64,000 nt of DNA from Nitrosopumilus sp. (GTDB taxonomy: Archaea > Thermoproteota > Nitrososphaeria > Nitrososphaerales > Nitrosopumilaceae): NCBI GenBank assembly GCA_965197525.1, contig OZ240211.1:544001-608000 (forward strand), read 5' to 3'. Of this stretch, positions 4,812 through 56,235 are shown piece by piece. Under the pieces are notes generated by a model. That model worked only from the letters and a program-made list of their open reading frames with translations. It made no database searches and was not told the origin of the DNA. Both the position numbers and the translations under genes were made by a program. Position 1 is the stretch's first letter; each line of letters begins with the position of its first letter.

Positions 4812-5199
4812 GGTTCTGTGAAGTTATAGAGACCTGAAACATGGATGAATAAATATCGTTAATTATATCATAATTATGTTGAATCCAACAAACACGAACA
4901 CGCAATGTCCAGGATGCGGAAAGATATTCCAAGAGGACATGCAATACAGACGTAAAATATCGTGTACCAATTGTGGATTGTTCATGAACAGCAACAACAT
5001 TGTCATGAACACATCTCACAAGCTGTCCCCTAGATTTAGGGATAGTAGAGGTGACATACATGAAGCACAGACTAACACTTTTGAGTTAGCAATGTCGGAA
5101 CCCAGTACACAGGTAATCCGAATAGTCGATATGTCAAAGTCAAGTAATAGGAGAAACACACCTTGGTAAATCAACGGGTACCTATAACTTCACAGAACC
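4812..5199 (+). mobile_element. Non-autonomous family-B derivative (388 bp) retaining the tnpB 3' end
   Basis: Perfect 18-bp TIR GGTTCTGTGAAGTTATAG at 4812-4829 and 5182-5199; interior homologous to the 3' end of tnpB at 55021-56223; no TSD. Confidence 0.88.
4876..5169 (+). pseudogene. tnpB: tnpB 3' fragment (Zn finger, degenerate RuvC-III, tail)
   Basis: TQCPGCGK..CTNCG..PRFRDSRGDI..VIRIVDMSKSS matches family-B TnpB; RuvC-III Asp lost. Confidence 0.88.
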
Positions 5200-23477: not shown

Positions 23478-24764
23478 GGTTCTGTGAAGTTATCAGGAGT
23501 TAACCCCTATAACTCGACTTTGACATATCGACTATTCGGATTACCAATGGTGTGCTGGGTTCCGTCATCGCAGGCTCAAAAGTGCCAGACTGTGCTTCAC
23601 ATATGTCACCTCTACTACCCCTAAACCTAGGGGGCAGTTTGCGTGATATGTTCATGGCAGCGATAATATCCCTATCCATAAACAAACCGCAATTATTACA
23701 CGACAATTTACGATGTTGTTGCATGTCCTCTTGGAGTCTCTTTCCGCATTGTGGACACTGCGTGCTCGTGTTTCTTGGGTCTACTATCTCGACTGGAGGT
23801 AGTCCGACCCATTGGGCTTTGTATTCTATTTGGCGTTGTAACTCGTAGAATTGCCACCCGTTCAATCTACGTCTGTACTTGTTACCTTGAGTGTTTCCTT
23901 TTCGGTACAATTTTCTTATTCCTTTCAGGTTTTCCATGACGATTGCAGTCTTGTTTTTGACTGCGTTGTCTACTATATCCTTTGAGATTCTGTGGATGTA
24001 CTGCTTTGCTCTGTTAGTCAGTCTTCTCTGTTTTTCCTTGTAGAACTGATTTTTCTTCCTGCGATCATTTCTGTGGAAGCCTGCCCTGGCGTGTATTGTG
24101 TTCTCCTTTATGGATAACAGTTTGTTTGTCTTGTAGACTGTCACCTCTTTCTCGTTCCCGCACGTCACATTTCTTAGGTTTCTGTCTATTCCCACTTTCT
24201 TGGTGCACTCTATCTCTTGTACTGTTTTTGAAACACAAAGACTGATGTTCAGAGCAGTCAATGAAAACGAGCGCACCGTCAAGGCAGGATCAGATAGGAT
24301 TTTTTGGGTGTGATCGTTGAGTAAAATGTTGATTGGGTTATGTTTCTTGTATGGGATTGTTAATAGTGCACCGTTGTGTTTTATGCCGTAACAGTTTGTC
24401 ATAAAGGGATTTTTGACTATTGGGTCTCTTATTCTGACACCTCGTTTGATTGATTGTTTTCTGTTTGATAATATGCCTGCAGCTCTTGATATTGCACATA
24501 TCTTGTATGTTGATAAAATGCCATAGTTACGTAATTCATGATAACATAACATGGACAACCTCTTCATATTGTGAGTGTCTTCTTTCAACCCTATCTTGAT
24601 GCAATGATTGACCATCTTTGTGAATATATCCATCATATCCATTAGATCAGAGTTCGGCGTATATTTCTGTGATATTGACTTTATCGCTTTCAACGAATAT
24701 CTTACGGTTTAGAGGTTATACATTTTAGGAATTGACATATAACTCACGATAACTTGACAGAACC
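23478..24764 (-). mobile_element. TIR-bounded tnpB-only element, family B (1287 bp)
   Basis: 25-bp TIR GGTTCTGTGAAGTTATCAGGAGTTA vs GGTTCTGTCAAGTTATCGTGAGTTA; perfect 8-bp TSD TGATCTAT at 23470-23477 and 24765-24772. Confidence 0.95.
23500..24693 (-). CDS. tnpB: TnpB-family RNA-guided endonuclease, 397 aa
   Basis: VGIDRN, IVMENL, CPQC..CNNC, DRDIIAAMNI. Confidence 0.93.
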   Translation of the reverse strand: MKAIKSISQKYTPNSDLMDMMDIFTKMVNHCIKIGLKEDTHNMKRLSMLCYHELRNYGILSTYKICAISRAAGILSNRKQSIKRGVRIRDPIVKNPFMTNCYGIKHNGALLTIPYKKHNPINILLNDHTQKILSDPALTVRSFSLTALNISLCVSKTVQEIECTKKVGIDRNLRNVTCGNEKEVTVYKTNKLLSIKENTIHARAGFHRNDRRKKNQFYKEKQRRLTNRAKQYIHRISKDIVDNAVKNKTAIVMENLKGIRKLYRKGNTQGNKYRRRLNGWQFYELQRQIEYKAQWVGLPPVEIVDPRNTSTQCPQCGKRLQEDMQQHRKLSCNNCGLFMDRDIIAAMNISRKLPPRFRGSRGDICEAQSGTFEPAMTEPSTPLVIRIVDMSKSSYRG

Positions 24765-28455: not shown

Positions 28456-28738
28456 AAATAAAAATAAAGGTTCTGTTGCGTTCATGAGGGGTAATTCTTC
28501 CTGTTGCGTGTAGAGAGGTCAGGCTTGAAATCTCGGTTATGTTAACTATCGAGTGTTATTCCATGATCTTATTCATGTTAACTGTCTGATGTTTCGAGGC
28601 TAGCTAACTTTAAAAAGTTATACATGGTTTTTTTACATAAACGACATTGTCTGAAGCGCCGGATATCCAAACAAGTCAAAGCCCAACTTTTAAGGAAATT
28701 AATTTACTGGACAGGTTTCAGACCTCAATTATGATGGA

Positions 28739-28975
28739 ATGAAACTAGTAATTTTACATGATTCACCTGATCTTCAAAAGGCATTACAAGGCAATCAATT
28801 CAAAATGTCCAAAGCGATAATCAATAGAGAGATTGAGTGCACATTAAACTTGTCACCAATAAATCTCAAAGGTTGGTCAAGATTATTCCAAGCGGAATTG
28901 GCAAGATACAAAAAATTATTTGGTACAATATTATCCCCTGAAGAAATAAATGAAAAATTTAAGAATCCGATTTAG
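28739..28975 (+). CDS. Hypothetical cargo ORF
   Basis: 78-aa ORF converging on the transposase scrap. Confidence 0.4.
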   Translation: MKLVILHDSPDLQKALQGNQFKMSKAIINREIECTLNLSPINLKGWSRLFQAELARYKKLFGTILSPEEINEKFKNPI

Positions 28976-29043
28976 TTTTTCTTACTTGCATTTTGAATTA
29001 TGGTAAGTCATTTGTTGTCGCCCTTGATGTCAATTTCTGCCGC
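28972..29043 (-). pseudogene. IS6-like transposase C-terminal fragment
   Basis: Translates AAEIDIKGDNK*LTIIQNASKKN*, versus RAGIDIKGDNKWKTIIQNAS in the 40840 transposase. Confidence 0.85.
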
Positions 29044-29352
29044 ACTAACGTTAGTTTAGTATGATATAGAACTAAATGATCATCAATATTTGTCCTAGTA
29101 CTAAAATTGATCAATTGTTAGGTTTGAATAGATTATGCATAATCTAGATTACCCATAATCTCTAATATCAAATATGTCACATTTGTCCTAGAATATAATA
29201 TTGATGGAGATAAATATCTAGTATGTCAAATTCAGGCATGATCAAAAAATTTATCCCTCGACACGCAACAGGAAGAATTGCCCCTCATGAACGCAACAGA
29301 ACCTTATTTATAAAATAAATATAAATAATTTAATGTTATCTAAATAAACAAC

Positions 29353-37512: not shown

Positions 37513-38592
37513 TTATTTTCCAGAACGATTACACGCCAAACAAAGCATTTGACAGTTATCCTGTTCTGTTTTTCCACCTTTACTCCAGGGTATGATATGA
37601 TCACCTTCCATTTTTGAAAACTCAAATTCTTCTTTACACATGGTACACACACCGTTTTGTGTCTCATATGCTAGTCGTTTTTCTTCATCTGAAAATGTAC
37701 GCAGTGAAAGATGTTTTTCATCACGTGTCAACAAATATGTATAAATTCCTTTATTTTTGTGTACTTCTGGATCTTTGACTAGTTTTTGTGTCTCTTCTTC
37801 TATTTTATTAGTATCAAACAACGTATCTTTGTATTTGTCATATAGTGGACCCCATTCAATGCCATTCATCATTTTCTCTCTCTTTACAGTAAATGTGCTT
37901 TCAACCCAATTAATCACTCCTTGAAAATAATTCCATAATTCGTTGGCATTTTGGTCATGTTGGTGCTTACCCATATAGTCTTCTATGTTATTTTTTGATT
38001 TCCATTTTATAGCTGTTTCCAAATAATCTTGTTGGATAGGCACGCCTTTCATATAATCACTAGCCAAATTATAGGCAGCACAACCGTTTTTGCTAAAATG
38101 TAGTTTTGCATCAGTAACCCATGCTCCAGAGTAAACAGCATTTCTAAGTTCTTGTGGTTTTAGTTCTACGCCTGCAATATTTATTATCTTAAACCATTCT
38201 AACTTTTCACTATCGTCTCCTTCACATTGATAAACAGTAAATTCATAATCAAGAATCTTGTCTTGTTCATCTTTTTTTAAGTTATCAAAATATTTTTTAT
38301 TAAATGAGAATACACCATTAACATATTGACATATTGATATTGTTCTTTGTTGCCCGTCAATAATCTCAAATTTTCCATCATCTTGAACAAACCAATACAT
38401 GACATTAAGTGGAAAGTTTTTGGTAACTGTGTCTATTACTAGGTCGCGTTGTTTTTCTTTGTAAACAAACTCTCTTTGGTACGGTGGTCTAATGTCTAGT
38501 TTTCCATCAAATCCAAAAACACCATCGTTTCCTTTATCCTCATAATTTTCTGACAGTTCTCTAATGGTTATTTCTTTTAGGTCTATTTTCAT
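37513..38592 (-). CDS. DUF262 (GmrSD-like) plus HNH endonuclease
   Basis: RPPYQREFVY, IIDGQQR, FKIINIAG; CTMC..EGDHIIPWSKGG..NCQMLCLACN. Confidence 0.9.
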   Translation of the reverse strand: MKIDLKEITIRELSENYEDKGNDGVFGFDGKLDIRPPYQREFVYKEKQRDLVIDTVTKNFPLNVMYWFVQDDGKFEIIDGQQRTISICQYVNGVFSFNKKYFDNLKKDEQDKILDYEFTVYQCEGDDSEKLEWFKIINIAGVELKPQELRNAVYSGAWVTDAKLHFSKNGCAAYNLASDYMKGVPIQQDYLETAIKWKSKNNIEDYMGKHQHDQNANELWNYFQGVINWVESTFTVKREKMMNGIEWGPLYDKYKDTLFDTNKIEEETQKLVKDPEVHKNKGIYTYLLTRDEKHLSLRTFSDEEKRLAYETQNGVCTMCKEEFEFSKMEGDHIIPWSKGGKTEQDNCQMLCLACNRSGK

Positions 38593-39560
38593 TTTTTGAA
38601 CCTCTTGTGTTTAATCATAATTCTCATGTAGACATCTTTTCCACTAACAGCAAGATCTTCACAATGATCATATCCATGTTTAAAATAACGACTTAGACCT
38701 AAAATTTCAAACTGGTCAGGGTTGTATTGATTCATAAAAGTTATTGGTACACCCATAACACCATCATAATCCATAGGTATCTCTTTTGTTTTATTTACAT
38801 TAATAGCATCATAATTATCATATTTTGGGTATTCAGATTCACTGTATTTTTTGTATAAAATAATATCTTCATGTCGTTTGTCATAATCTAAATTAGTGAA
38901 CCATACTGCACCAATAGAAACTAAATCTATTTTATTGTCAATTTTACCATTAATGTTCACTTGAGTTTTTTTCATAAAACTCATTCCACCTTTACTAGTA
39001 TATCCAAGCCAAATTTTATTGTCTTTAATTAATGGAAATATTTCTTTATATGATATTGCATTTTTATTTCCAATAATTAAAAATTTTTTGTGGCATTCTA
39101 TTAATTGTGCAACATATTCTCTAAATAGAGAAAATGGTGGATTAGTAACTACAATATCAGCTTGTTTTAACAAATCAACGCATTCTTTAGAACGAAAATC
39201 TCCATCTTCTTTTAATGGTATAACATCAATTTCATTAATATCAGGCACACGATTATCGTTTTTATCTCCATTATATTCTAAATAAATAGCACGTTTAGAA
39301 TCATGTTTACTAAACAATGACATTTGTTGATTTTTGTAACAAGTCGCAATTATTTTTTTCAATTTTAGAGTTTCAAATTGATGTGAAAAATAGTGAAAAA
39401 AATTTGATACAGTAGGATCATCACAATTACAATAAACTATTTTATTTTCAAAATGTTTTCTATAATGGTATAATTCGTTTTCAATATCTGTTAGTTGAGT
39501 ATAAAATTCATCATTTTTCTTAGCTTTTGCAATATGAAATGAAGTATTGTCTAATGTCAA
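38589..39560 (-). CDS. Adenine-specific DNA methyltransferase, EcoRI family
   Basis: KNDEFYT, VYCNCDDP, GDFRS, VVTNPPFSLFREY, GVMGVPIT. Confidence 0.92.
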   Translation of the reverse strand: MTLDNTSFHIAKAKKNDEFYTQLTDIENELYHYRKHFENKIVYCNCDDPTVSNFFHYFSHQFETLKLKKIIATCYKNQQMSLFSKHDSKRAIYLEYNGDKNDNRVPDINEIDVIPLKEDGDFRSKECVDLLKQADIVVTNPPFSLFREYVAQLIECHKKFLIIGNKNAISYKEIFPLIKDNKIWLGYTSKGGMSFMKKTQVNINGKIDNKIDLVSIGAVWFTNLDYDKRHEDIILYKKYSESEYPKYDNYDAINVNKTKEIPMDYDGVMGVPITFMNQYNPDQFEILGLSRYFKHGYDHCEDLAVSGKDVYMRIMIKHKRFKK

Positions 39561-39856
39561 TACTCACGGTGTTCAATTTGTTTAAAAGCCCGATTTTTTG
39601 TACAAAAGTTGTAATAATTCAGAAATTCTGCAAGTTCTTTGCGGAACTATTTAGCATAACAATTCCTTGTTATCTTTTTTGATCGAATTAGTATTTGAGA
39701 AAATTAGTGTTGTTTTTTAATTCTTAGGTTCTGTTAACTTACCGTCACCTGATTAATCGTGTTAAGTGTCGTCACCTGAGATCTGGTTCGAAAGAGGAGG
39801 ATAAAATATGATGGAAACGCAGATTAACTCTATATCTAGATCATACTTCATAAGAA

Positions 39857-40828
39857 ATGCAAAAAAGAGATTGGATTCTATGGACGATAGTCGCAGGTAT
39901 ATTCATATCTCTGTCATTGCCAATAATATTACCAGACGTAAACGAATTTACAACTGTAGTAATTGCACCTGTAGCAGCTGGAGTCATGATGCTTATTTTT
40001 AAGCAGTATTTTTTTGACGGCATACCATATAGTACGAAAGAAGAACACACGAAAAATATTTGTAAAGTCTACATGTTACTTACACGTGTTGGAATTAAAC
40101 AAGGTAGGCGGAACGATTCACTATGGAAACGTTTTCTAAGGTTTCCAACAGAATATAAACCAGTGGCGGGCCAGATTGTGGAAGAATTATTAGATGGTGT
40201 GCATGTTGAGCAAATATATGAAGATCAACTAGGAGATCATCCTGCTTATCTTCACTATGACTCTGCATTAGAACATCTTAAGAAGCATAGGAAATACAAG
40301 CCTATCTACAAGCATTGGGAAAACACAAAAACCATGTTGGACGAACTCAACAGCAAAACTGGTATTGAGGAAAGGCTTGAAGGCGTAATAAAGGAAAAAA
40401 TGCATCGCTACTTTCCTGCCCTGCAAAGTTTCGCACTAGGAAAAAAATCTTCAGATTTTTACGACATGGATTATATCGTGAAATTTATGATGAAATATTT
40501 CAATAATCTAGACGGCTTTTCAAGACATGCTTTGGACTCTTTGGTTTGTAATAAATCAGGCAGAAACAAATTCGTTTATTCGCAGTGGTATGTTGACAAT
40601 CCTCACATCACCGTGAACTCTGACAGTAAGATAGATTTTAAGACATACAAAAAGTTAGTGAAAGAGATGCAAGAAGATGATTCACTGAATGATTTTTACA
40701 ATGAGTATGAAAATGAACGCTGTAATATCATAAAAGAATTGACTTACTTTCAAGATGAATTAGAAGAACTTGTAAAAGATCTAAAAAGAGGGAAACTGAT
40801 AGAAGGTAAATGCGATGTGGGGTTTTGA
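39857..40828 (+). CDS. Membrane-anchored hypothetical cargo protein
   Basis: Two N-terminal TM segments; no recognised motif. Confidence 0.7.
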   Translation: MQKRDWILWTIVAGIFISLSLPIILPDVNEFTTVVIAPVAAGVMMLIFKQYFFDGIPYSTKEEHTKNICKVYMLLTRVGIKQGRRNDSLWKRFLRFPTEYKPVAGQIVEELLDGVHVEQIYEDQLGDHPAYLHYDSALEHLKKHRKYKPIYKHWENTKTMLDELNSKTGIEERLEGVIKEKMHRYFPALQSFALGKKSSDFYDMDYIVKFMMKYFNNLDGFSRHALDSLVCNKSGRNKFVYSQWYVDNPHITVNSDSKIDFKTYKKLVKEMQEDDSLNDFYNEYENERCNIIKELTYFQDELEELVKDLKRGKLIEGKCDVGF

Positions 40829-40839
40829 TCTCTATCAAC

Positions 40840-41989
40840 TTATTGAGGGATAAGCGAGGCGAAATTTTCCCTATAAAGCGAAGCGTTCTGAATGATAGTT
40901 TTCCATTTATTGTCGCCCTTGATGTCGATTCCTGCTCTAAGAGCTGGCGTATCTCCATCCAAACTCATGTGGGGTCTTATGTAGTTATGATATAATTTGA
41001 TGCCGTCTATTGCAGGAGAATCATCTTTTTTGAGTCCACGAAACACTTTCTCACGGTCTCTGAACTCCCCGTTTAGCCTTTCCTGTATGTTGTTGTTTGC
41101 TACTTGGTTTTTGAAATGTACCTCTTTGATGTGTTTGCTTGGCTTGTGTAAAAAATTCTTTGGTGCAAACTCTTTTTTGAAAGCGTCATTATACGCTGGT
41201 AGACCATCCGTTACAAAAACACTTGGAGTTTTCTTTGTTACATCTTTACCCATCTTTAACAAACTTTGTGCATCATGTTTGAACTTGCTATCAGCTACCT
41301 CTTGAGCAATCCAAAATCTTGTCTCGTTATCCATCATGGCAAACAAATATTTGCGATCTCCTTTGACTTTGAGCCATACCTCATCTGCGTGCCATTTCTC
41401 ACCTACTTGCGGTGTAATAGTGGACAAGTAATTATCCATAAGTTTGGTGTATTTTTTTACCCAGTTGTATATTGAGATATGGCTCATGTTGACACCTTGT
41501 AACTTTAGAAATTTTTGTACTCCTCTAATGGATTCGCCTGTAAAGTACAGTTGCATGGCACTTGTAATAACCTGGGGTGAGGCGTGCATCTTTTCAAATC
41601 CAAGATTGAATGAAAAATATTTTTTGCATTTCATACATTGGTATTTCTGTATAGAGTGGGTCTTGTTCTTTCTGATGCCTTTCTTTTTGATGTCTTCTGA
41701 CTTGCAGAACTGGCAACATGTAACTGTAATCTCATCAACTACTGTAATATTCTGTCTTACCTCTTCTCTAATCTTAAGACTAATTTCAACTGCGTGTATA
41801 TGTTTACAACATACTTTACAGAACTGATGATCTGGACACTGACATGTCCAACCTGCCTCTGTGGATACTATCTCATAGGTATTCTCTGATGACTGTGATT
41901 TTACAAAGTAACGGCTATCATCAACCCTTTCTATCTGGTTTTGTCTCTCTGCTATGATTTGACCTCTAGCCTGTCTTCGATTCGTACAT
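40840..41989 (-). pseudogene. SWIM Zn finger + Zn ribbon + IS6/IS240-type DDE transposase with a +1 frameshift near the start
   Basis: Frame is open upstream of 41634 (CQCPDH..CCKHIHAV; CQFC..CMKC); WHADEVW, VTDGLPAY, NNIQERLN, YHNYIRPH; ATG at 41989 is out of frame by one base (span 1150 bp). Confidence 0.85.
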
Positions 41990-42039
41990 TATAGGCATAT
42001 TAATGCCTATATAACTTATGCCCTTTAATATAGGCATAA
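41990..42039. promoter_or_regulatory. Paired palindromic operator-like sites in a divergent promoter
   Basis: TATAGGCAT-N4-ATGCCTATA (41990-42011) and TTATGCC-N10-GGCATAA (42016-42039). Confidence 0.55.
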
Positions 42040-42063
42040 ATATAACAGGTCATAATACCTAGT

Positions 42064-42237
42064 ATGAAAAACCTAGTAAAGTATTCAAATGTTGTAATTG
42101 CAAACAAGAACCAGACGGTACGGTGTACGATTCCCAAGGACATTGCAGAGATGCTAGATATAACCACTGACAACAGAATAAAATGGACTTTGGAAATTAA
42201 AACTGGTCAGATAGTATTAGAGCTTGTAAAGGAATAA
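42064..42237 (+). CDS. AbrB/SpoVT-like DNA-binding protein (57 aa, below ORF-track cutoff)
   Basis: VRCTIPKDIAEMLDITTDNRIKW matches the AbrB-like xTIPKxIxxxLxIxxGDxxxW pattern. Confidence 0.75.
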   Translation: MKNLVKYSNVVIANKNQTVRCTIPKDIAEMLDITTDNRIKWTLEIKTGQIVLELVKE

Positions 42238-42247
42238 TCATGATAAG

Positions 42248-42508
42248 TCATGGGATTGATGAGGGCTTGCAGTATTCACAATCACGGGGTGGGTTTTCAT
42301 ACCCATATTTTTCAGCTAAACACTCTGCTATCTTGTAGACCTTTTGAAGGGTTGATGCAGTATGCCAATCTGAATTTTTAGCTGTAGGTTGTTTTCTGCG
42401 TGTATAGTAAGGACACGTTCTTTTATGAATCTTGATATCTCCAACTTTTGGTTTGTTGCGATAAACTGCAAATCCATCTAAATTATGATTCAATATCACT
42501 GAATTCAA
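42248..42508 (-). CDS. Small Cys/His-containing hypothetical cargo protein
   Basis: HKRTC..CEYC. Confidence 0.55.
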   Translation of the reverse strand: MNSVILNHNLDGFAVYRNKPKVGDIKIHKRTCPYYTRRKQPTAKNSDWHTASTLQKVYKIAECLAEKYGYENPPRDCEYCKPSSIP

Positions 42509-42712
42509 TTACGGTTAATATATAATCGTAGTTATTGTAGAAAAAAGGATTTGATCGGTCAAGGGATTTGATCTGTTCAGCATCTACACTGAATTTTTAA
42601 ATAATTGGTACATTTTTTTGATTTATGCTTCCTAATCAAGAAAAAGAACCTGAAACGTAAACGTTTACACTTCCTTTTTCAATAAAATAAATGTTAAATA
42701 CAGTTTCGTTAG

Positions 42713-44140
42713 TGTATTGTCCTGAAAGTAGTTCACCCCTCACATCAGGCTCATAACCTAGGTGGGCGCGTTCCATGACCGATTTTTTCAGCGGCATGGC
42801 ATCCCATGTAAAATCTATGAAAGACACAGCCAACTTGTCCATTACTGGAAACAGTGGTGTGTGGGTCCGCAGATGGAGACGCTCTACTGTGTGGCGTTAT
42901 ATAGGAAGACGGAGAGTACGAGTAATGAAAAAACTTGATCAAGCCAAAGTGGAATGGATTATCAAAGAAAAGCGTAAAGATACTGCAAATAACAAAGAGA
43001 TTGCAGCAAAGATGAACGTCTCTGTCAGATGGGTTCAAAAGCTGCACAAGAGATACAAAGATGCAGACAAGATAGTATATCCTGTCCCAATGGGAAGACC
43101 AAAAAAGAGTGCACCCGGACGACTAGAACACTCTGTGATTCTCTCAGCAATATCAAACGAGATTCGAGGAGCTGCAACCTTGGAGCGCGTCATAAGATCA
43201 TCTGTAGGAATGTATATTGCGCACAACTTTATACACAAAGTATTGAAAGATGCAGATTATGTAGATGCCAGTACAAACAAGGGCAAGAGGCGCAAGTGGG
43301 TTAGGTGGGAACGAGATTACTCCAATTCCCTGTGGCATACTGATTTCAAACATCTTGACGATGGCAGATGGTTCCTGTGTTACCAGGATGACGCTTCACG
43401 TTTTGTGACTGGTTTTGGGGTATTTGCAGAGGCAACCACAGAAAACGCCCTAAAGGTACTTGATGAGGCCATAAAAAATCACGGCAAACCAGCATCAATC
43501 CTGACAGATCGTGGTACCCAGTTCTATGCCACAGAGTCTGAGGTCAAGAAGAAGGGAGTCTCCAAATTTGAACAAAGACTGGTGGAACTTGACATCAAAC
43601 ACATATTGGCACGTGTACGACATCCACAGACAAATGGCAAACTAGAACGCCTGCACGGAGAGATACAGCGCAAACTAGGCCACTTTGAAGGTGCTTCAGC
43701 TGGCAAGACTCGACGTGATACCTCAGAGAACTCTAGCGTGGGAGGACCGTTTTACACCGCATCTGCAAAGGATCCCGTGGAACGGTTCATGGAATGGTAC
43801 AACTACAACAGGCCGCATATGTCACTTGACTGGGACAATCTAGAGACTCCGGTACAGGCATTTAAGAGAAAGATGCCGCCTGCTGGCAAGACGGTGACAG
43901 ATAGTCAAACAGGTCAAAAGTACAGTGTAGAGTAACATTATGACATTAAAACGGATGTTTTATTCTTAGTGGACACTACATAATTTTTTGAATAGTTGTC
44001 ATGCGTGGAGTGGAAATGAATAAAATTCATGAATTGTACAGCAGAATTTAGCGCAAGAGAGTTATACATCACTCTAGAACATCATACATGCAAACATCTC
44101 CAAGTTTTGAAGAGGGGCGAACTACTTTTGGGATCCCACA
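42713..44140 (+). mobile_element. IS481-family insertion sequence nested in the cargo transposon
   Basis: 29-bp imperfect TGT-starting TIRs; 14-bp TSD TACAGTTTCGTTAG at 42699-42712 and 44141-44154. Confidence 0.9.
42925..43935 (+). CDS. IS481-family DDE transposase
   Basis: LWHTDFK, ILTDRGTQF, HPQTNGKLER, YNYNRPHMSL; N-terminal HTH. Confidence 0.92.
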   Translation: MKKLDQAKVEWIIKEKRKDTANNKEIAAKMNVSVRWVQKLHKRYKDADKIVYPVPMGRPKKSAPGRLEHSVILSAISNEIRGAATLERVIRSSVGMYIAHNFIHKVLKDADYVDASTNKGKRRKWVRWERDYSNSLWHTDFKHLDDGRWFLCYQDDASRFVTGFGVFAEATTENALKVLDEAIKNHGKPASILTDRGTQFYATESEVKKKGVSKFEQRLVELDIKHILARVRHPQTNGKLERLHGEIQRKLGHFEGASAGKTRRDTSENSSVGGPFYTASAKDPVERFMEWYNYNRPHMSLDWDNLETPVQAFKRKMPPAGKTVTDSQTGQKYSVE

Positions 44141-44168
44141 TACAGTTTCGTTAGACTAATGACAAAGT

Positions 44169-44735
44169 ATGTCAGAACCGCCAAAAAACTCAAAGGCTTG
44201 GTATCTCTTACCAGTGTTTCTATTTGCTCTAGGCGGAGTAATTATGTTTTTGGTATTACGTAAAAAGAACTCACAGATGGCGAAACAGGGCCTTATTCTA
44301 GGAGTTACCATATCAGTGGTTTGGTTTTTGGCTCCAATTCTTAGCGGAGCAGCATCACCTCTATGGTTTCTGGAAGATATAGAAGAATATGAATACGAAT
44401 CTAATAATTTTGAAAAGTCTCCAGATAAGCAGAAGCTTGAGATAGATAAGCAGAAGCTTGAGATAGATAAGCAGAAGCTTGAGGCAGAGTTAGCAAAACT
44501 TGAGGTAGTGAAGCAGATGCTTGAGGCAGAGAATTCTGATAGGATAGTGTCTAATGATCAATGTTCATTATTTTGTGATTCAAACAACTATGAACCAGTT
44601 TGGGCCAAGTCTATGGGTAAATATCAAGCTACGAGTAAATGTCAATCTATAGTCATTGAGAACTTTCAATCTAAAGACGGAAAATGGTGTATTGAATTAC
44701 TAGGCAAAATTCTAGATGATCAATATGCACCGTAA
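44169..44735 (+). CDS. Membrane protein with 21-bp coiled-coil repeats (DKQKLEI)
   Basis: AWYLLP..GG TM hairpin; repeats at about 44424-44483. Confidence 0.7.
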   Translation: MSEPPKNSKAWYLLPVFLFALGGVIMFLVLRKKNSQMAKQGLILGVTISVVWFLAPILSGAASPLWFLEDIEEYEYESNNFEKSPDKQKLEIDKQKLEIDKQKLEAELAKLEVVKQMLEAENSDRIVSNDQCSLFCDSNNYEPVWAKSMGKYQATSKCQSIVIENFQSKDGKWCIELLGKILDDQYAP

Positions 44736-44743
44736 TACGGTAT

Positions 44744-44821
44744 CTATACCTCAAGTTTTGCTAACTCTGTCTCAAGCTTCTGCTTCTCTTGCCATTCTAC
44801 CTCTTTCTTCTCTAGTTGTCT
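44744..44821 (-). pseudogene. Inverted paralog fragment abutting the right TIR
   Basis: RQLEKKEVEWQEKQKLETELAKLEV*; 38/39 nt match to 44469-44507. Confidence 0.65.
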
Positions 44822-45068
44822 AGGTGACGACAGTTAACAGCAAGAGTCAGGTGACGGTAAGTTAACAGAACCCATCTAACAATATGTTAATATGCTATAG
44901 TATATAACATATCTATATCATGAATGAAAGAACATTTCAACAACAATGGGGAGAAAGACATGATGCTGTAGTGAAAAAGTATGAAGACAAAAAGAGAGAT
45001 GGAACCATGAGAAAAATAGTGGTTGTGGACATAGAGGATTAGGCTATCACTCTAAATTTTTATTCAAG

Positions 45069-54948: not shown

Positions 54949-56235
54949 GGTTCTGTGAAGTTATCGGGAGTTATATGTCAATTCCTAAAATGTATAAACC
55001 TCTAAACCGTAAGATATTCGTTGAAAGCGATAAAGTCAATATCACAGAAATATACGCCAAACTCTGATCTAATGGATATGATGAGTACATTCACAAAGAT
55101 GGTCAATCATTGCATCAAGATAGGGTTGAAAGAAGACACTCACAATATGAAGAGGTTGTCCATGTTATGTTATCATGAATTACGTAATTATGACATCCTG
55201 TCTTCATACAAACTAAATGCAATATCACGAGCTGCAGGCATGTTATCAAACAGAAAACAATCAATCAAACGAGGTGTCAGAATAAGAGATCTAATAGTCA
55301 AAAATCCCTTTATGACAAACTGTTACGGCATAAAACACAACGGTGCACTACTAACAATCCCATACAAGAGACATAACCCAATCAACATTTTACTCAACGA
55401 TCACACCCAAAAAATCCTATCTGATCCCGCCTTGACGGTGCGCTCGTTTTCATTGACTGCTCTGAACATCAGTCTTTGTGTTTCAAAAACAGTGCAAGAG
55501 ATCGAGTGCACCAAGAAAGTGGGAATAGACAGAAACCTAAGAAATGTGACGTGTGGGAATGAGAAAATGGTAACATTCTACAAGACAAACAAGTTACTGT
55601 CAATCAAAGAGAACACAATACATGCAAGAGCAGGATTCCACAGAAATGATCGCAGAAAGAAAGGTCAATTCTGGAAACAAAGACAGAGACGAATGAGCAA
55701 TAGAACAAAGCAGTACATCCACAGAATCTCAAAACATATTATTGACAATGCAGTCAAAAACAAGACTGCAATCGTCATGGAAAACCTGAAAGGAATAAGA
55801 AAACTGTACCGAAAAGGAAACAGTCAAGGTAACAAGTACAGACGTAGATTGAACGGGTGGCAATTCTACGAGTTACAACGCCAAATAGAATACAAAGCCC
55901 AATGGGTCGGGCTACCTCCAGTCGAATTTGTAGATCCAAAACGCACGAGCACGCAGTGTCCGCAATGCGGAAAGAAACTCCAAGAGGACATGCAACAACA
56001 TCGTAAAATGTCGTGCAATAATTGCGGTTTGTTTATGGACAGAGATATTATCGCTGCCATGAACATATCACGCAAACTGCCTCCTAGGTTTAGGGGTAGT
56101 AGAGATGACATATATGAAGCGCAGTCTGGCACTTTTGAGCCGGCGATGACGGAACCTAGCACACCATTGGTAATCCGAATAGTCGATATGTCAAAGTCAA
56201 GTTTAGGGGTTAACTCCCGATAACTTCACAGAACC
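54949..56235 (+). mobile_element. TIR-bounded tnpB-only element, family B (1287 bp)
   Basis: Perfect 25-bp TIR GGTTCTGTGAAGTTATCGGGAGTTA; same length as the 23478 copy; no TSD. Confidence 0.95.
55021..56223 (+). CDS. tnpB: TnpB-family RNA-guided endonuclease, 400 aa
   Basis: Close paralog of 23500-24693; D/E/D residues intact. Confidence 0.93.
   Translation: MKAIKSISQKYTPNSDLMDMMSTFTKMVNHCIKIGLKEDTHNMKRLSMLCYHELRNYDILSSYKLNAISRAAGMLSNRKQSIKRGVRIRDLIVKNPFMTNCYGIKHNGALLTIPYKRHNPINILLNDHTQKILSDPALTVRSFSLTALNISLCVSKTVQEIECTKKVGIDRNLRNVTCGNEKMVTFYKTNKLLSIKENTIHARAGFHRNDRRKKGQFWKQRQRRMSNRTKQYIHRISKHIIDNAVKNKTAIVMENLKGIRKLYRKGNSQGNKYRRRLNGWQFYELQRQIEYKAQWVGLPPVEFVDPKRTSTQCPQCGKKLQEDMQQHRKMSCNNCGLFMDRDIIAAMNISRKLPPRFRGSRDDIYEAQSGTFEPAMTEPSTPLVIRIVDMSKSSLGVNSR

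What the first reader, a model, noticed from the sequence alone, without database searches (positions are those of the whole stretch)
39727..44872. 5.1-kb single-TIR-pair cargo transposon with a SWIM/Zn-ribbon/IS6 transposase: candidate mobiliser type for family B
Seen: perfect 26-bp TIRs starting GGTTCTGT, each followed by a second copy of the core TGTTAA.T..CGTCACCT; a roughly 380-aa transposase with two extra N-terminal Zn modules; a divergent AbrB-like gene; three cargo ORFs; a nested IS481. Known: classical IS6 elements are about 0.8 kb with roughly 230-aa enzymes and mobilise cargo as two flanking copies. Inference: an enlarged archaeal IS6-related transposon class whose shells carry varied cargo, including TnpB. 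The inner TIR differs from family B, so the exact cognate enzyme may be a paralog elsewhere.
Basis: partly seen in the sequence, partly recalled or inferred. Interest (0 to 1): 0.72.

Follow-up and report, generated by a model that had tools for sequence, protein, structure and literature searches.

The report
Disabled archaeal IS6-like cargo transposon
This 5.1-kb stretch of a Nitrosopumilus genome is a real IS6-type jumping gene that carries passenger genes between a single pair of two-part inverted ends, one member of a widespread and apparently undescribed archaeal group, but this copy has lost its transposase start codon and is probably stranded.

Summary
Window 39727-44872 is bounded by a 51-nt inverted repeat (26 nt perfect). 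The 24-nt end sequence occurs only at these two places in the 2.21-Mb genome.

- **Contents:** a transposase with SWIM, Zn-ribbon, HTH and IS240-type DDE parts; a divergent AbrB-like gene; three passenger ORFs; and a later IS481-like insertion with its own 15-bp duplication.
- **The class is real.** Sister elements of 2 to 12 kb, here and in other Nitrosopumilaceae and a Bathyarchaeia genome, have one transposase, the same two-site ends and perfect 8-bp target duplications. Their cargo is mostly DNA methylases and restriction-modification genes.
- **Two-site ends.** The outer and inner site of each end co-vary (6.1 of 8 bases within elements, 4.2 of 8 between; 0 of 10000 permutations). This argues for two transposase-binding sites per end.

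- There is no frameshift. The start codon ATG of sister copies is ACG here.
- This copy has no target duplication.
- Its ends match TnpB 'family B' no better than other end types in this genome do.

The closest described relative is ISCpe7 (31% identity, no SWIM domain). This scan had already reported the same class on other DNA, including two elements in this genome. Verdict: a new variant of a known kind, and this copy is probably inactive.

The parts
39727..39777 (+). Left terminal inverted repeat, in two parts. The outer site is at 39732-39750 and the inner site at 39760-39777. Each is a TGTTAA(C/G) heptamer followed by the octamer CGTCACCT.
39857..40828 (+). Passenger ORF of 323 aa with an N-terminal membrane segment and no known family. 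It is convergent with the transposase.
   Evidence: No Pfam, NCBIfam or PADLOC hit. A 48-50% identical paralog sits in the same position beside the P7 transposase. The family has 27 proteins, and elsewhere they are not next to IS6 transposases.
40840..41985 (-). IS6-like transposase gene (SWIM, Zn ribbon, HTH, DDE). All conserved Cys/His and D-D-E residues are kept, but the start codon position reads ACG (41983-41985). The next in-frame start is at 41634.
41997..42043 (.). Palindrome-rich region between the divergent transposase and AbrB-like genes, with repeated ATGCCTATA half-sites. It is a putative operator overlapping both promoters. A TATA-like TTATATA lies at 42014-42008 on the minus strand.
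   Evidence: Inverted repeat I19. The region is nearly invariant across E1, L005 and L013 although the flanking coding sequence differs. Sequence read. The operator role is inferred.
42064..42237 (+). AbrB/MazE-like small DNA-binding protein of 57 aa, divergent from the transposase.
   Evidence: Pfam MazE_antitoxin E 9e-4, below the cut-off. It is 84-91% identical and in the same divergent position in L005 and L013.
42248..42508 (-). Passenger ORF of 86 aa, Cys/His-containing, function unknown.
   Evidence: A 55% identical paralog lies at genome 1605772-1605996. No family hit.
42713..44139 (+). Nested IS481-like insertion sequence. Its transposase is at 42775-43935. It is flanked by the 15-bp direct repeat ATACAGTTTCGTTAG (42698-42712 and 44140-44154).
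44169..44735 (+). Passenger ORF of 188 aa: membrane segment, 21-nt (7-aa) tandem coiled-coil repeats, and a Cys-containing C-terminal domain that has paralogs.
44747..44789 (.). 43-nt inverted copy (95%) of part of the ORF188 repeat region (44465-44507), just downstream of the ORF188 stop codon.
   Evidence: I2
44822..44872 (-). Right terminal inverted repeat, in two parts, with the same octamer CGTCACCT in both sites.
39662..39724 (-). Lies outside the element. A 63-nt relic resembling the 5' end of a P7-type IS6-like transposase gene, abutting the left end.

Best explanation
E1 is a unit transposon (an insertion sequence with passenger genes) of an archaeal clade related to the IS6 family.

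**How the clade works**
- Its roughly 375-aa transposase has an N-terminal SWIM-type zinc module, an IS1-like zinc ribbon, an HTH and an IS240-type DDE domain.
- I infer that it binds two sites on each end: an outer site at positions 6-24 and an inner site from about position 34. Each site is a conserved TGTTAAC-like heptamer followed by an element-specific octamer.
- It joins the GG-tipped ends to a target cut with an 8-bp stagger. By analogy with IS6 this would go through a replicative cointegrate that host recombination resolves. The analogy is not tested.
- Everything between the two ends moves with the transposase.
- I infer that the small AbrB-like protein represses the divergent promoters through the conserved palindromes.

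**State of this copy**
- It carries unknown passengers rather than the restriction-modification genes common in its sisters.
- An IS481-like element inserted into it later.
- It has lost the transposase start codon (ATG to ACG).
- It lacks a target duplication.
- It is most likely a recently immobilised copy whose flank was rearranged.
For: **Shown**
- The end pair is unique in the genome and the 51-nt inverted repeat is real.
- Invariant residues across 38 homologs are C47/C49/C59/H61 (SWIM), C90/C93/C116/C119 (ribbon) and D200/D259/E301 (catalytic).
- The N-terminal domain was modelled at pLDDT of about 85-90. Its match to ZSWIM8 is weak on its own: Z 6.5, rmsd 2.7, 71 residues aligned, below the level the tool treats as meaningful. 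The HTH matches homeodomain and Myb folds.
- Seven sister elements with one transposase each have perfect 8-bp duplications.
- Outer and inner octamers co-vary: 6.14 of 8 within elements against 4.15 of 8 between, with 0 of 10000 permutations reaching the observed value. The heptamer co-varies too, for example TGTTGCG in L005 and TGTCAAC in L014.
- An E1-type end lies beside a 76%-identical transposase in L007.
- The AbrB-like gene and the intergenic palindromes are conserved in L005 and L013.
- ACG replaces ATG with no indel. An in-frame TAA lies two codons upstream.
- The database gene call for this genome is a truncated 249-aa protein (P0049).
- The nested IS has its own 15-16-bp duplications in three copies.
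- More than 4800 homologs of about 370-385 aa exist, mostly Nitrosopumilales, and some are named 'IS6 family transposase' by NCBI.

**Inferred**
- Binding of the two sites, the cointegrate pathway, the repressor role and the leaderless transcript.
Against: - E1 has no 8-bp duplication, so its own insertion as a unit is not directly shown.
- No empty site was recovered.
- Transposase identity and end type are only loosely coupled: L005 is 77% identical but has a different end type, and the Mantel-type correlation is weak.
- The NCBIfam IS6 model scores 118.3, just under its cut-off of 125.
- ACG could support some initiation, or it could be an assembly error.
- No activity, binding or transcription has been measured.
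Confidence: 0.82

Rival explanations
1. The two ends belong to separate events. On this reading the 5.1 kb is a chance or compound assembly between two solo ends or two truncated elements, and never moved as one piece.
For: - No target duplication flanks E1.
- Solo ends are common in this genome: 781099, 780890, 780991, 917309 and 1587561.
- E1-type relic ends exist at 781099 and 1610404.
- A transposase-gene relic abuts the left end.
Against: - Both ends carry the same octamer four times, and that octamer is otherwise unique in the genome. They are 26 of 26 identical at the tips.
- A transposase of the matching clade lies inside, in the family's usual layout.
- Sister elements of 2-12 kb with the same layout have perfect duplications.
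- Loss of a duplication is expected after intramolecular IS6-type events or recombination between copies (IS6 review, PMC7986276).
Confidence: 0.07
2. E1 is still mobile. Either ACG serves as a weak start codon, or another IS6-like enzyme in the cell acts on its ends.
For: - The frame is otherwise intact with all catalytic and zinc ligands present.
- The ends are nearly perfect.
- Intact paralogs P2, P3, P4 and P7 exist in the genome.
Against: - No paralog-bearing element in this genome shares the CGTCACCT octamer.
- There is a single full copy and only two decayed relic ends.
- ACG is not among the usual archaeal start codons (my own knowledge).
Confidence: 0.18
3. E1 or its enzyme type is the specific mobiliser of the TnpB-only 'family B' elements.
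For: - Family B has GGTTCTGT tips and perfect 8-bp duplications but no transposase of its own.
- Subfamily B2 ends match E1 best among local end types: 20 and 18 of 26.
Against: - Main family B ends match E1 at 17-18 of 26. That is the same as or below the solo 't3' ends (18-20) and E2 (18-19).
- Family B octamers (CGGGAGTT, CGAGGGTT) resemble the t3 and E2 inner sites, not CGTCACCT.
- E1's enzyme lacks a start codon.
- Family B ends show no second site with the family's heptamer-plus-octamer form (read directly from the end sequences printed).
Confidence: 0.1

Closest known systems
IS6/IS26 family insertion sequences (IS26, IS257/IS431, IS6100, IS240), as reviewed in PMC7986276 and PMC6807381
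   Same: - IS240-type DDE domain.
- HTH in front of the catalytic core.
- Ends that start with GG and contain cTGTt; GGTTCTGTT is also how IS257 begins (my own recollection).
- 8-bp target duplications in sister elements.
   Different: - Classical members are 0.7-0.9 kb with one gene of 220-250 aa and 15-20-bp repeats. They move cargo only as pseudo-compound transposons between two direct IS copies.
- The ends are about 50 nt and carry two sites.
- An extra SWIM module and an extra zinc ribbon are present.
- The NCBIfam IS6 score falls just under its cut-off.
Long clostridial IS6 clades (ISCpe7 group, clade h/VII; ISTet2 group, clade i/VIII)
   Same: - Best described relative by sequence: 31% identity over residues 92-358, covering the zinc ribbon, HTH and DDE domain.
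- N-terminal zinc-finger extension.
- 8-bp duplications.
   Different: - The ISCpe7 N-terminus has two CxxC...CxxC ribbons and no CxCxnCxH SWIM motif.
- These are simple 1.2-1.8-kb IS from bacteria, without passengers, and with TIRs of 12-32 bp (PMC6807381).
ISDsp3, the only IS6-family member listed with a passenger gene (PMC7986276)
   Same: It carries a passenger gene inside a single TIR pair.
   Different: It is 1456 bp with one hypothetical passenger, is bacterial, and lacks an intact zinc finger (PMC6807381). It is not a multi-kb carrier of defence genes.
DDE-transposase-associated TnpB branches, and solo TnpBs with matching ends (PMC10691335)
   Same: The family B elements beside E1 are TnpB-only units with inverted ends of the same type as DDE elements in the same genome.
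   Different: That paper does not use the term 'IS6' in its main text (0 whole-word hits). E1 itself carries no TnpB.

Membership tests
IS6 family (ISfinder sense) | DDE transposase of the IS240/IS6 type | tested here: met
   Pfam PF13610 scores 52.9 bits against a cut-off of 27. D200, D259 and E301 are invariant.
IS6 family (ISfinder sense) | NCBIfam equivalog NF033587 at or above its cut-off | tested here: not met
   118.3 bits against a cut-off of 125; P2 scores 120.6 and P7 105.1. It is the best-scoring family by far, but below threshold.
IS6 family (ISfinder sense) | Terminal inverted repeats starting with GG and containing a cTGTt motif | tested here: met
   Both ends read GGTTCTGTTAAC. 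The consensus is taken from PMC7986276.
IS6 family (ISfinder sense) | 8-bp target-site duplication | tested here: inconclusive
   Absent at E1 (AATTCTTA against CATCTAAC). Perfect in seven sister elements.
IS6 family (ISfinder sense) | Compact single-gene element of about 0.7-0.9 kb with a 220-250-aa enzyme | tested here: not met
   E1 is 5146 bp with a 381-codon gene and at least four other genes.
IS6 family (ISfinder sense) | Replicative cointegrate formation resolved by host recombination | not testable with these tools
   Needs a transposition assay.
Long clostridial IS6 clade (ISCpe7-like) | N-terminal extension of about 90 aa forming a zinc finger of CxxC motifs, in a simple 1.2-1.35-kb IS | tested here: not met
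   One CxxC...CxxC ribbon is shared, but E1 has a SWIM module in place of the second ribbon, identity is 31%, and E1 carries cargo.
tIS (insertion sequence with passenger genes) | Passenger genes inside one TIR pair together with one transposase | tested here: met
   The class behaviour is shown by sister elements with duplications.
SWIM zinc-finger domain (PF04434) | CxCxnCxH signature and a Pfam score above the cut-off | tested here: inconclusive
   E1 scores 17.1 bits against a cut-off of 19.6; paralog P2 scores 25.2, which is above it. C47, C49, C59 and H61 are invariant in 38 homologs. The fold match to ZSWIM8 has Z 6.5, rmsd 2.7 and 71 residues aligned.
IS481 family (nested element) | rve-type DDE transposase with an N-terminal HTH, and a direct target repeat | tested here: inconclusive
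   NCBIfam IS481 is the best family at 169 bits but below its cut-off of 224. Pfam rve scores 52.6 bits. Target repeats are 15-16 bp in three copies.

The most novel reading that the evidence does not exclude
The SWIM and zinc-ribbon IS6-like elements may form a distinct archaeal family of unit transposons. In this reading, each end carries two transposase-binding sites whose element-specific octamers define mutually exclusive enzyme-end pairs. That would let many lineages coexist in one small genome without cross-mobilisation: defence carriers, TnpB-only shells, RNA-only shells and short non-autonomous elements. The AbrB-like repressor and its conserved operator would act as a portable off-switch.
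Probability: 0.3. Interest if true: 0.7.

Novelty: new variant of a known kind. Interest (0 to 1): 0.5.

Why it matters
- The main survey of thaumarchaeal mobile elements states that transposons carrying passenger genes had not been detected in archaea (PMC6563490). The IS6 reviews list only one passenger-carrying member and no thaumarchaeal ones (PMC7986276, PMC6807381).
- A large clade of single-transposase carriers that move restriction-modification and other genes through ammonia-oxidising archaea fills that gap.
- The clade offers a candidate explanation for how TnpB-only elements with DDE-type ends move.
- The co-varying two-site ends give a concrete, testable code for which transposase acts on which end.
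- This particular copy adds the repressor-operator module and an example of how such elements decay. It is not the first or the best example of the class.

Tried and rejected
- **Frameshift repair idea.** Rejected. The alignment with L005 and L013 has no gap at the start of the gene.
- **Empty-site search.** 827 nt of the left flank and 1028 nt of the right flank were searched in 40 relatives. Only short or distant matches came back, so there is no empty site.
- **Simple insertion into a P7-like gene.** The left flank holds a 63-nt relic of a P7-like transposase 5' end, but the right flank shows no matching upstream sequence. The idea could not be supported.
- **ORF323 as a dedicated transposase partner.** Rejected. 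It was not found in 200 genomes of the family. In three other contigs its homologs have no IS6-type neighbour.
- **Function of the cargo genes.** Pfam, NCBIfam and PADLOC gave nothing for ORF323, ORF86 or ORF188 beyond sub-threshold hits. The protein atlas gave only a weak lead, DUF4760 at 0.88.
- **Which transposase region tracks end similarity.** The HTH region gave rho 0.42 with p of about 0.03, other regions 0.26-0.31, on 11 related elements. This is too weak to use.
- **Full-length structure model.** Poor overall (mean pLDDT 62). Only the N-terminal domain and the HTH were usable.
- **TIR search around P5 and P7.** My seed-based search found none. I only looked at its ends.
- **Literature.** Searches for SWIM together with IS6 transposases found no relevant paper.
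Full report
**Setting.** The window is bases 544001-608000 of a single-contig 2.21-Mb genome with 39.6% G+C. Protein and locus searches place it among Nitrosopumilus-type ammonia-oxidising archaea.

**Observation.** Window 39727-39777 and 44822-44872 form a 51-nt inverted repeat, 88% complementary, with the first 26 nt perfect. The 24-nt tip sequence occurs exactly twice in the genome, at these two places. Two decayed relatives differ at 3 positions, and the control pattern gave no hits. Each end holds two related sites. The outer site is TGTTAAC, then 4 nt, then CGTCACCT. The inner site starts at position 34 and is TGTTAA(G/C), then TGT, then CGTCACCT. No direct repeat flanks the element: AATTCTTA lies on the left and CATCTAAC on the right.

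**Contents, from left to right.**
- An ORF of 323 aa on the plus strand.
- The transposase frame on the minus strand.
- A palindrome-rich spacer.
- A 57-aa AbrB/MazE-like gene, divergent from the transposase.
- An 86-aa ORF on the minus strand.
- A 1427-bp IS with an rve-type transposase.
- A 188-aa ORF with 21-nt tandem repeats.

The three unknown ORFs are probably real genes, because each has a protein-level paralog in the genome at 48-55% identity. The nested IS is best matched by the NCBIfam IS481 model (169 bits, below its cut-off). It has 95% identical copies elsewhere. It makes 15-16-bp target repeats in all three copies examined, so it is a later, separate insertion.

**The transposase.**
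- Pfam DDE_Tnp_IS240 is well above its cut-off (52.9 against 27). The NCBIfam IS6 model is the best family but just below its cut-off (118.3 against 125).
- SWIM is sub-threshold in E1 (17.1 bits) but above threshold in the 79%-identical paralog P2 (25.2 against 19.6).
- In an alignment of 38 homologs the CxCxnCxH residues (C47, C49, C59, H61), the four ribbon cysteines (C90, C93, C116, C119) and D200, D259 and E301 are invariant.
- A structure model was poor overall. It was confident for residues 1-78, whose match to ZSWIM8 (Z 6.5, rmsd 2.7, 71 residues aligned) is weak support at best, since the tool treats Z under 8 as possibly a common arrangement. Residues 127-189 match homeodomain and Myb HTH folds.

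**The start of the gene.** The gapless alignment of E1 with two sister loci that share the AbrB-like gene (L005, L013) shows otherwise. The sisters read TATAAT(A/G)T-ATG-AAT, whereas E1 reads TATAATGT-ACG-AAT. The ACG lies at 41983-41985 on the minus strand. An in-frame TAA sits two codons upstream, and the next in-frame ATG, GTG or TTG is codon 119, inside the zinc ribbon. The database gene call for this genome is a truncated 249-aa protein. A TATA-like TTATATA lies about 26 nt upstream, which suggests a leaderless transcript; that is an inference. I conclude that the full-length enzyme is probably not made from this copy.

**Is the class real?** Yes. tblastn and a Pfam-model search find seven full-length paralogs in the genome.
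- Elements with perfect 8-bp duplications in this genome: E3 at 917093-923763 (6671 bp, CATTATTT), E4 at 746475-748444 (1970 bp, CTATTGTG) and E6 at 1956395-1960520 (4126 bp, TTTAATAG).
- E2 (699962-703151, 3190 bp) has identical 51-nt ends but no duplication.
- In other genomes: L009 (about 12.1 kb, CGAAAAAG), L012 (5664 bp, TTTATTGG), L017 (4.85 kb, TATCAGCA) and a Bathyarchaeia element, L016 (3959 bp, CTTTTTTC), all have perfect duplications. L011 (4085 bp) matches at 7 of 8.

Each has one transposase, usually close to one end, with cargo upstream of it. The cargo includes an N6/N4 methylase-HNH fusion (E2, E3), type IIG-like methylase-nuclease genes (L006, L009), two methylases (L012), the candidate defence gene PDC-S18 (L009) and unknowns. 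The sisters that share E1's AbrB-like gene carry methylase-like genes.

**Two-site ends.** Across 21 elements or solo ends, the octamer of the outer site matches that of the inner site at 6.14 of 8 positions within an element and 4.15 of 8 between elements. None of 10000 permutations reached the observed value. The 'constant' heptamer also changes in step: TGTTGCG in L005, TGTTGCC in L015, TGTCAAC in L014 and TGTTAAG in E3 and L012. This is what two binding sites for one cognate protein would produce. Binding itself is inferred. E1's octamer is shared by the end next to a 76%-identical transposase in L007 and by relic ends at genome 781099 and 1610404.

**Regulation.** The spacer between the transposase and the AbrB-like gene is almost invariant among E1, L005 and L013, although the flanking coding sequence differs. 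It contains repeated ATGCCTATA half-sites, including a perfect palindrome. I infer an operator through which the AbrB-like protein controls both promoters.

**Passengers.** The ORF323 family has only 27 members in 5.8 billion proteins. It was absent from 200 genomes of the family. In three other contigs it has no IS6-type neighbour. It is therefore a passenger rather than a transposition factor, even though a paralog occupies the same convergent, end-proximal position beside the distant P7 transposase.

**Family B.** The window holds 1287-bp elements (23478-24764 and 54949-56235) and a 388-bp derivative (4812-5199) with GGTTCTGTGAAG tips. Their only gene is a TnpB. E1's ends match main family B at 17-18 of 26 positions, the solo 't3' ends at 18-20 and E2 at 18-19. 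Subfamily B2 matches E1 best, at 20 and 18 of 26. The differences are small, and E1's enzyme lacks a start codon. E1 is of the right type of element, but it is not shown to be the cognate mobiliser and is probably not.

**Comparison with what is known.** The reviews describe IS6 members as 0.7-0.9 kb with 220-250-aa enzymes and 15-20-bp repeats, and with cargo moved only between two direct copies. They list long zinc-finger clades from Clostridia (340-450 aa), small archaeal members, and one element with a passenger, ISDsp3. ISCpe7 is the best described match: 31% identity over residues 92-358. Its N-terminus has two CxxC ribbons and no SWIM motif. The thaumarchaeal mobilome survey says passenger-carrying transposons had not been detected in archaea. 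DDE-associated TnpBs, and solo TnpBs with matching ends, are described in general. I found no paper on SWIM-bearing IS6-like enzymes.

**Earlier notes of this scan.** The same class was already reported on other DNA. In this genome that includes the 6.7-kb element E3 and a 17.65-kb element that holds P7. It was also reported in Bathyarchaeia, DPANN and other archaea. I re-derived the E3 duplication and the family B features independently. The other notes I used only as context.

**Verdict.** This copy is a decayed member: it has lost its start codon, has no duplication, contains a nested IS, and has a rearranged flank that abuts a relic of another IS6-like gene. Its role as mobiliser of family B is not supported.

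Noticed in passing
window 23478-24764, 54949-56235 and 4812-5199: TnpB-only 1287-bp elements and a 388-bp derivative with GGTTCTGTGAAG inverted ends. The genome holds about 20 of the 1287-bp units, with perfect 8-bp duplications and no transposase of their own.
   Followed up: partly
window 28469-29303: An 835-bp element without a transposase. Its two-site ends are of the TGTTGCG type, the same heptamer as the L005 sister, whose transposase is 77% identical to E1's.
   Followed up: partly
window 39662-39724: A 63-nt relic resembling codons 4 to about 24 of a P7-type IS6-like transposase gene lies directly against E1's left end. The right flank shows no matching partner.
   Followed up: yes
window 37513-39560: E1's left neighbours are an EcoRI-like adenine methylase (Pfam E 4e-127) and a GmrSD-N/HNH nuclease. 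E1 therefore sits at the edge of a restriction-type island.
   Followed up: no
window 44465-44507 and 44747-44789: A 43-nt stretch of the ORF188 coiled-coil repeat is repeated in inverted orientation (95%) just after the stop codon. This would allow a long hairpin in the transcript.
   Followed up: no
genome 703092-703151 (L034) and 780890-781150 (L040): Ends of different IS6-like subtypes pile up. E2's right end lies 8 bp from a solo 't3' end. Three solo left ends also follow each other about 100 bp apart, one of them of the E1 type.
   Followed up: partly
genome 917309 (L035) and 1610404 (L039): Hybrid ends. At 917309 the outer octamer is E1-like (CGTCGCTT) and the inner one E2-like (CGAGGGGT). 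At 1610404 a family-B-like outer site is followed by an E1-type inner site and 20 nt of E1's interior.
   Followed up: partly
   Followed up: partly
genome 921818-922420 (L035): A long run of tandem repeats lies inside E3, between the methylase-HNH gene and the transposase. It reads as repeated LGSWFLV or NQEPRTK in opposite frames.
   Followed up: no
window 44873-45040: E1's right end lies about 20 nt upstream of a TATA-like box and about 48 nt upstream of a 40-codon ORF. Earlier notes of this scan claim promoter-edge targeting for this class. I did not test that here.
   Followed up: no
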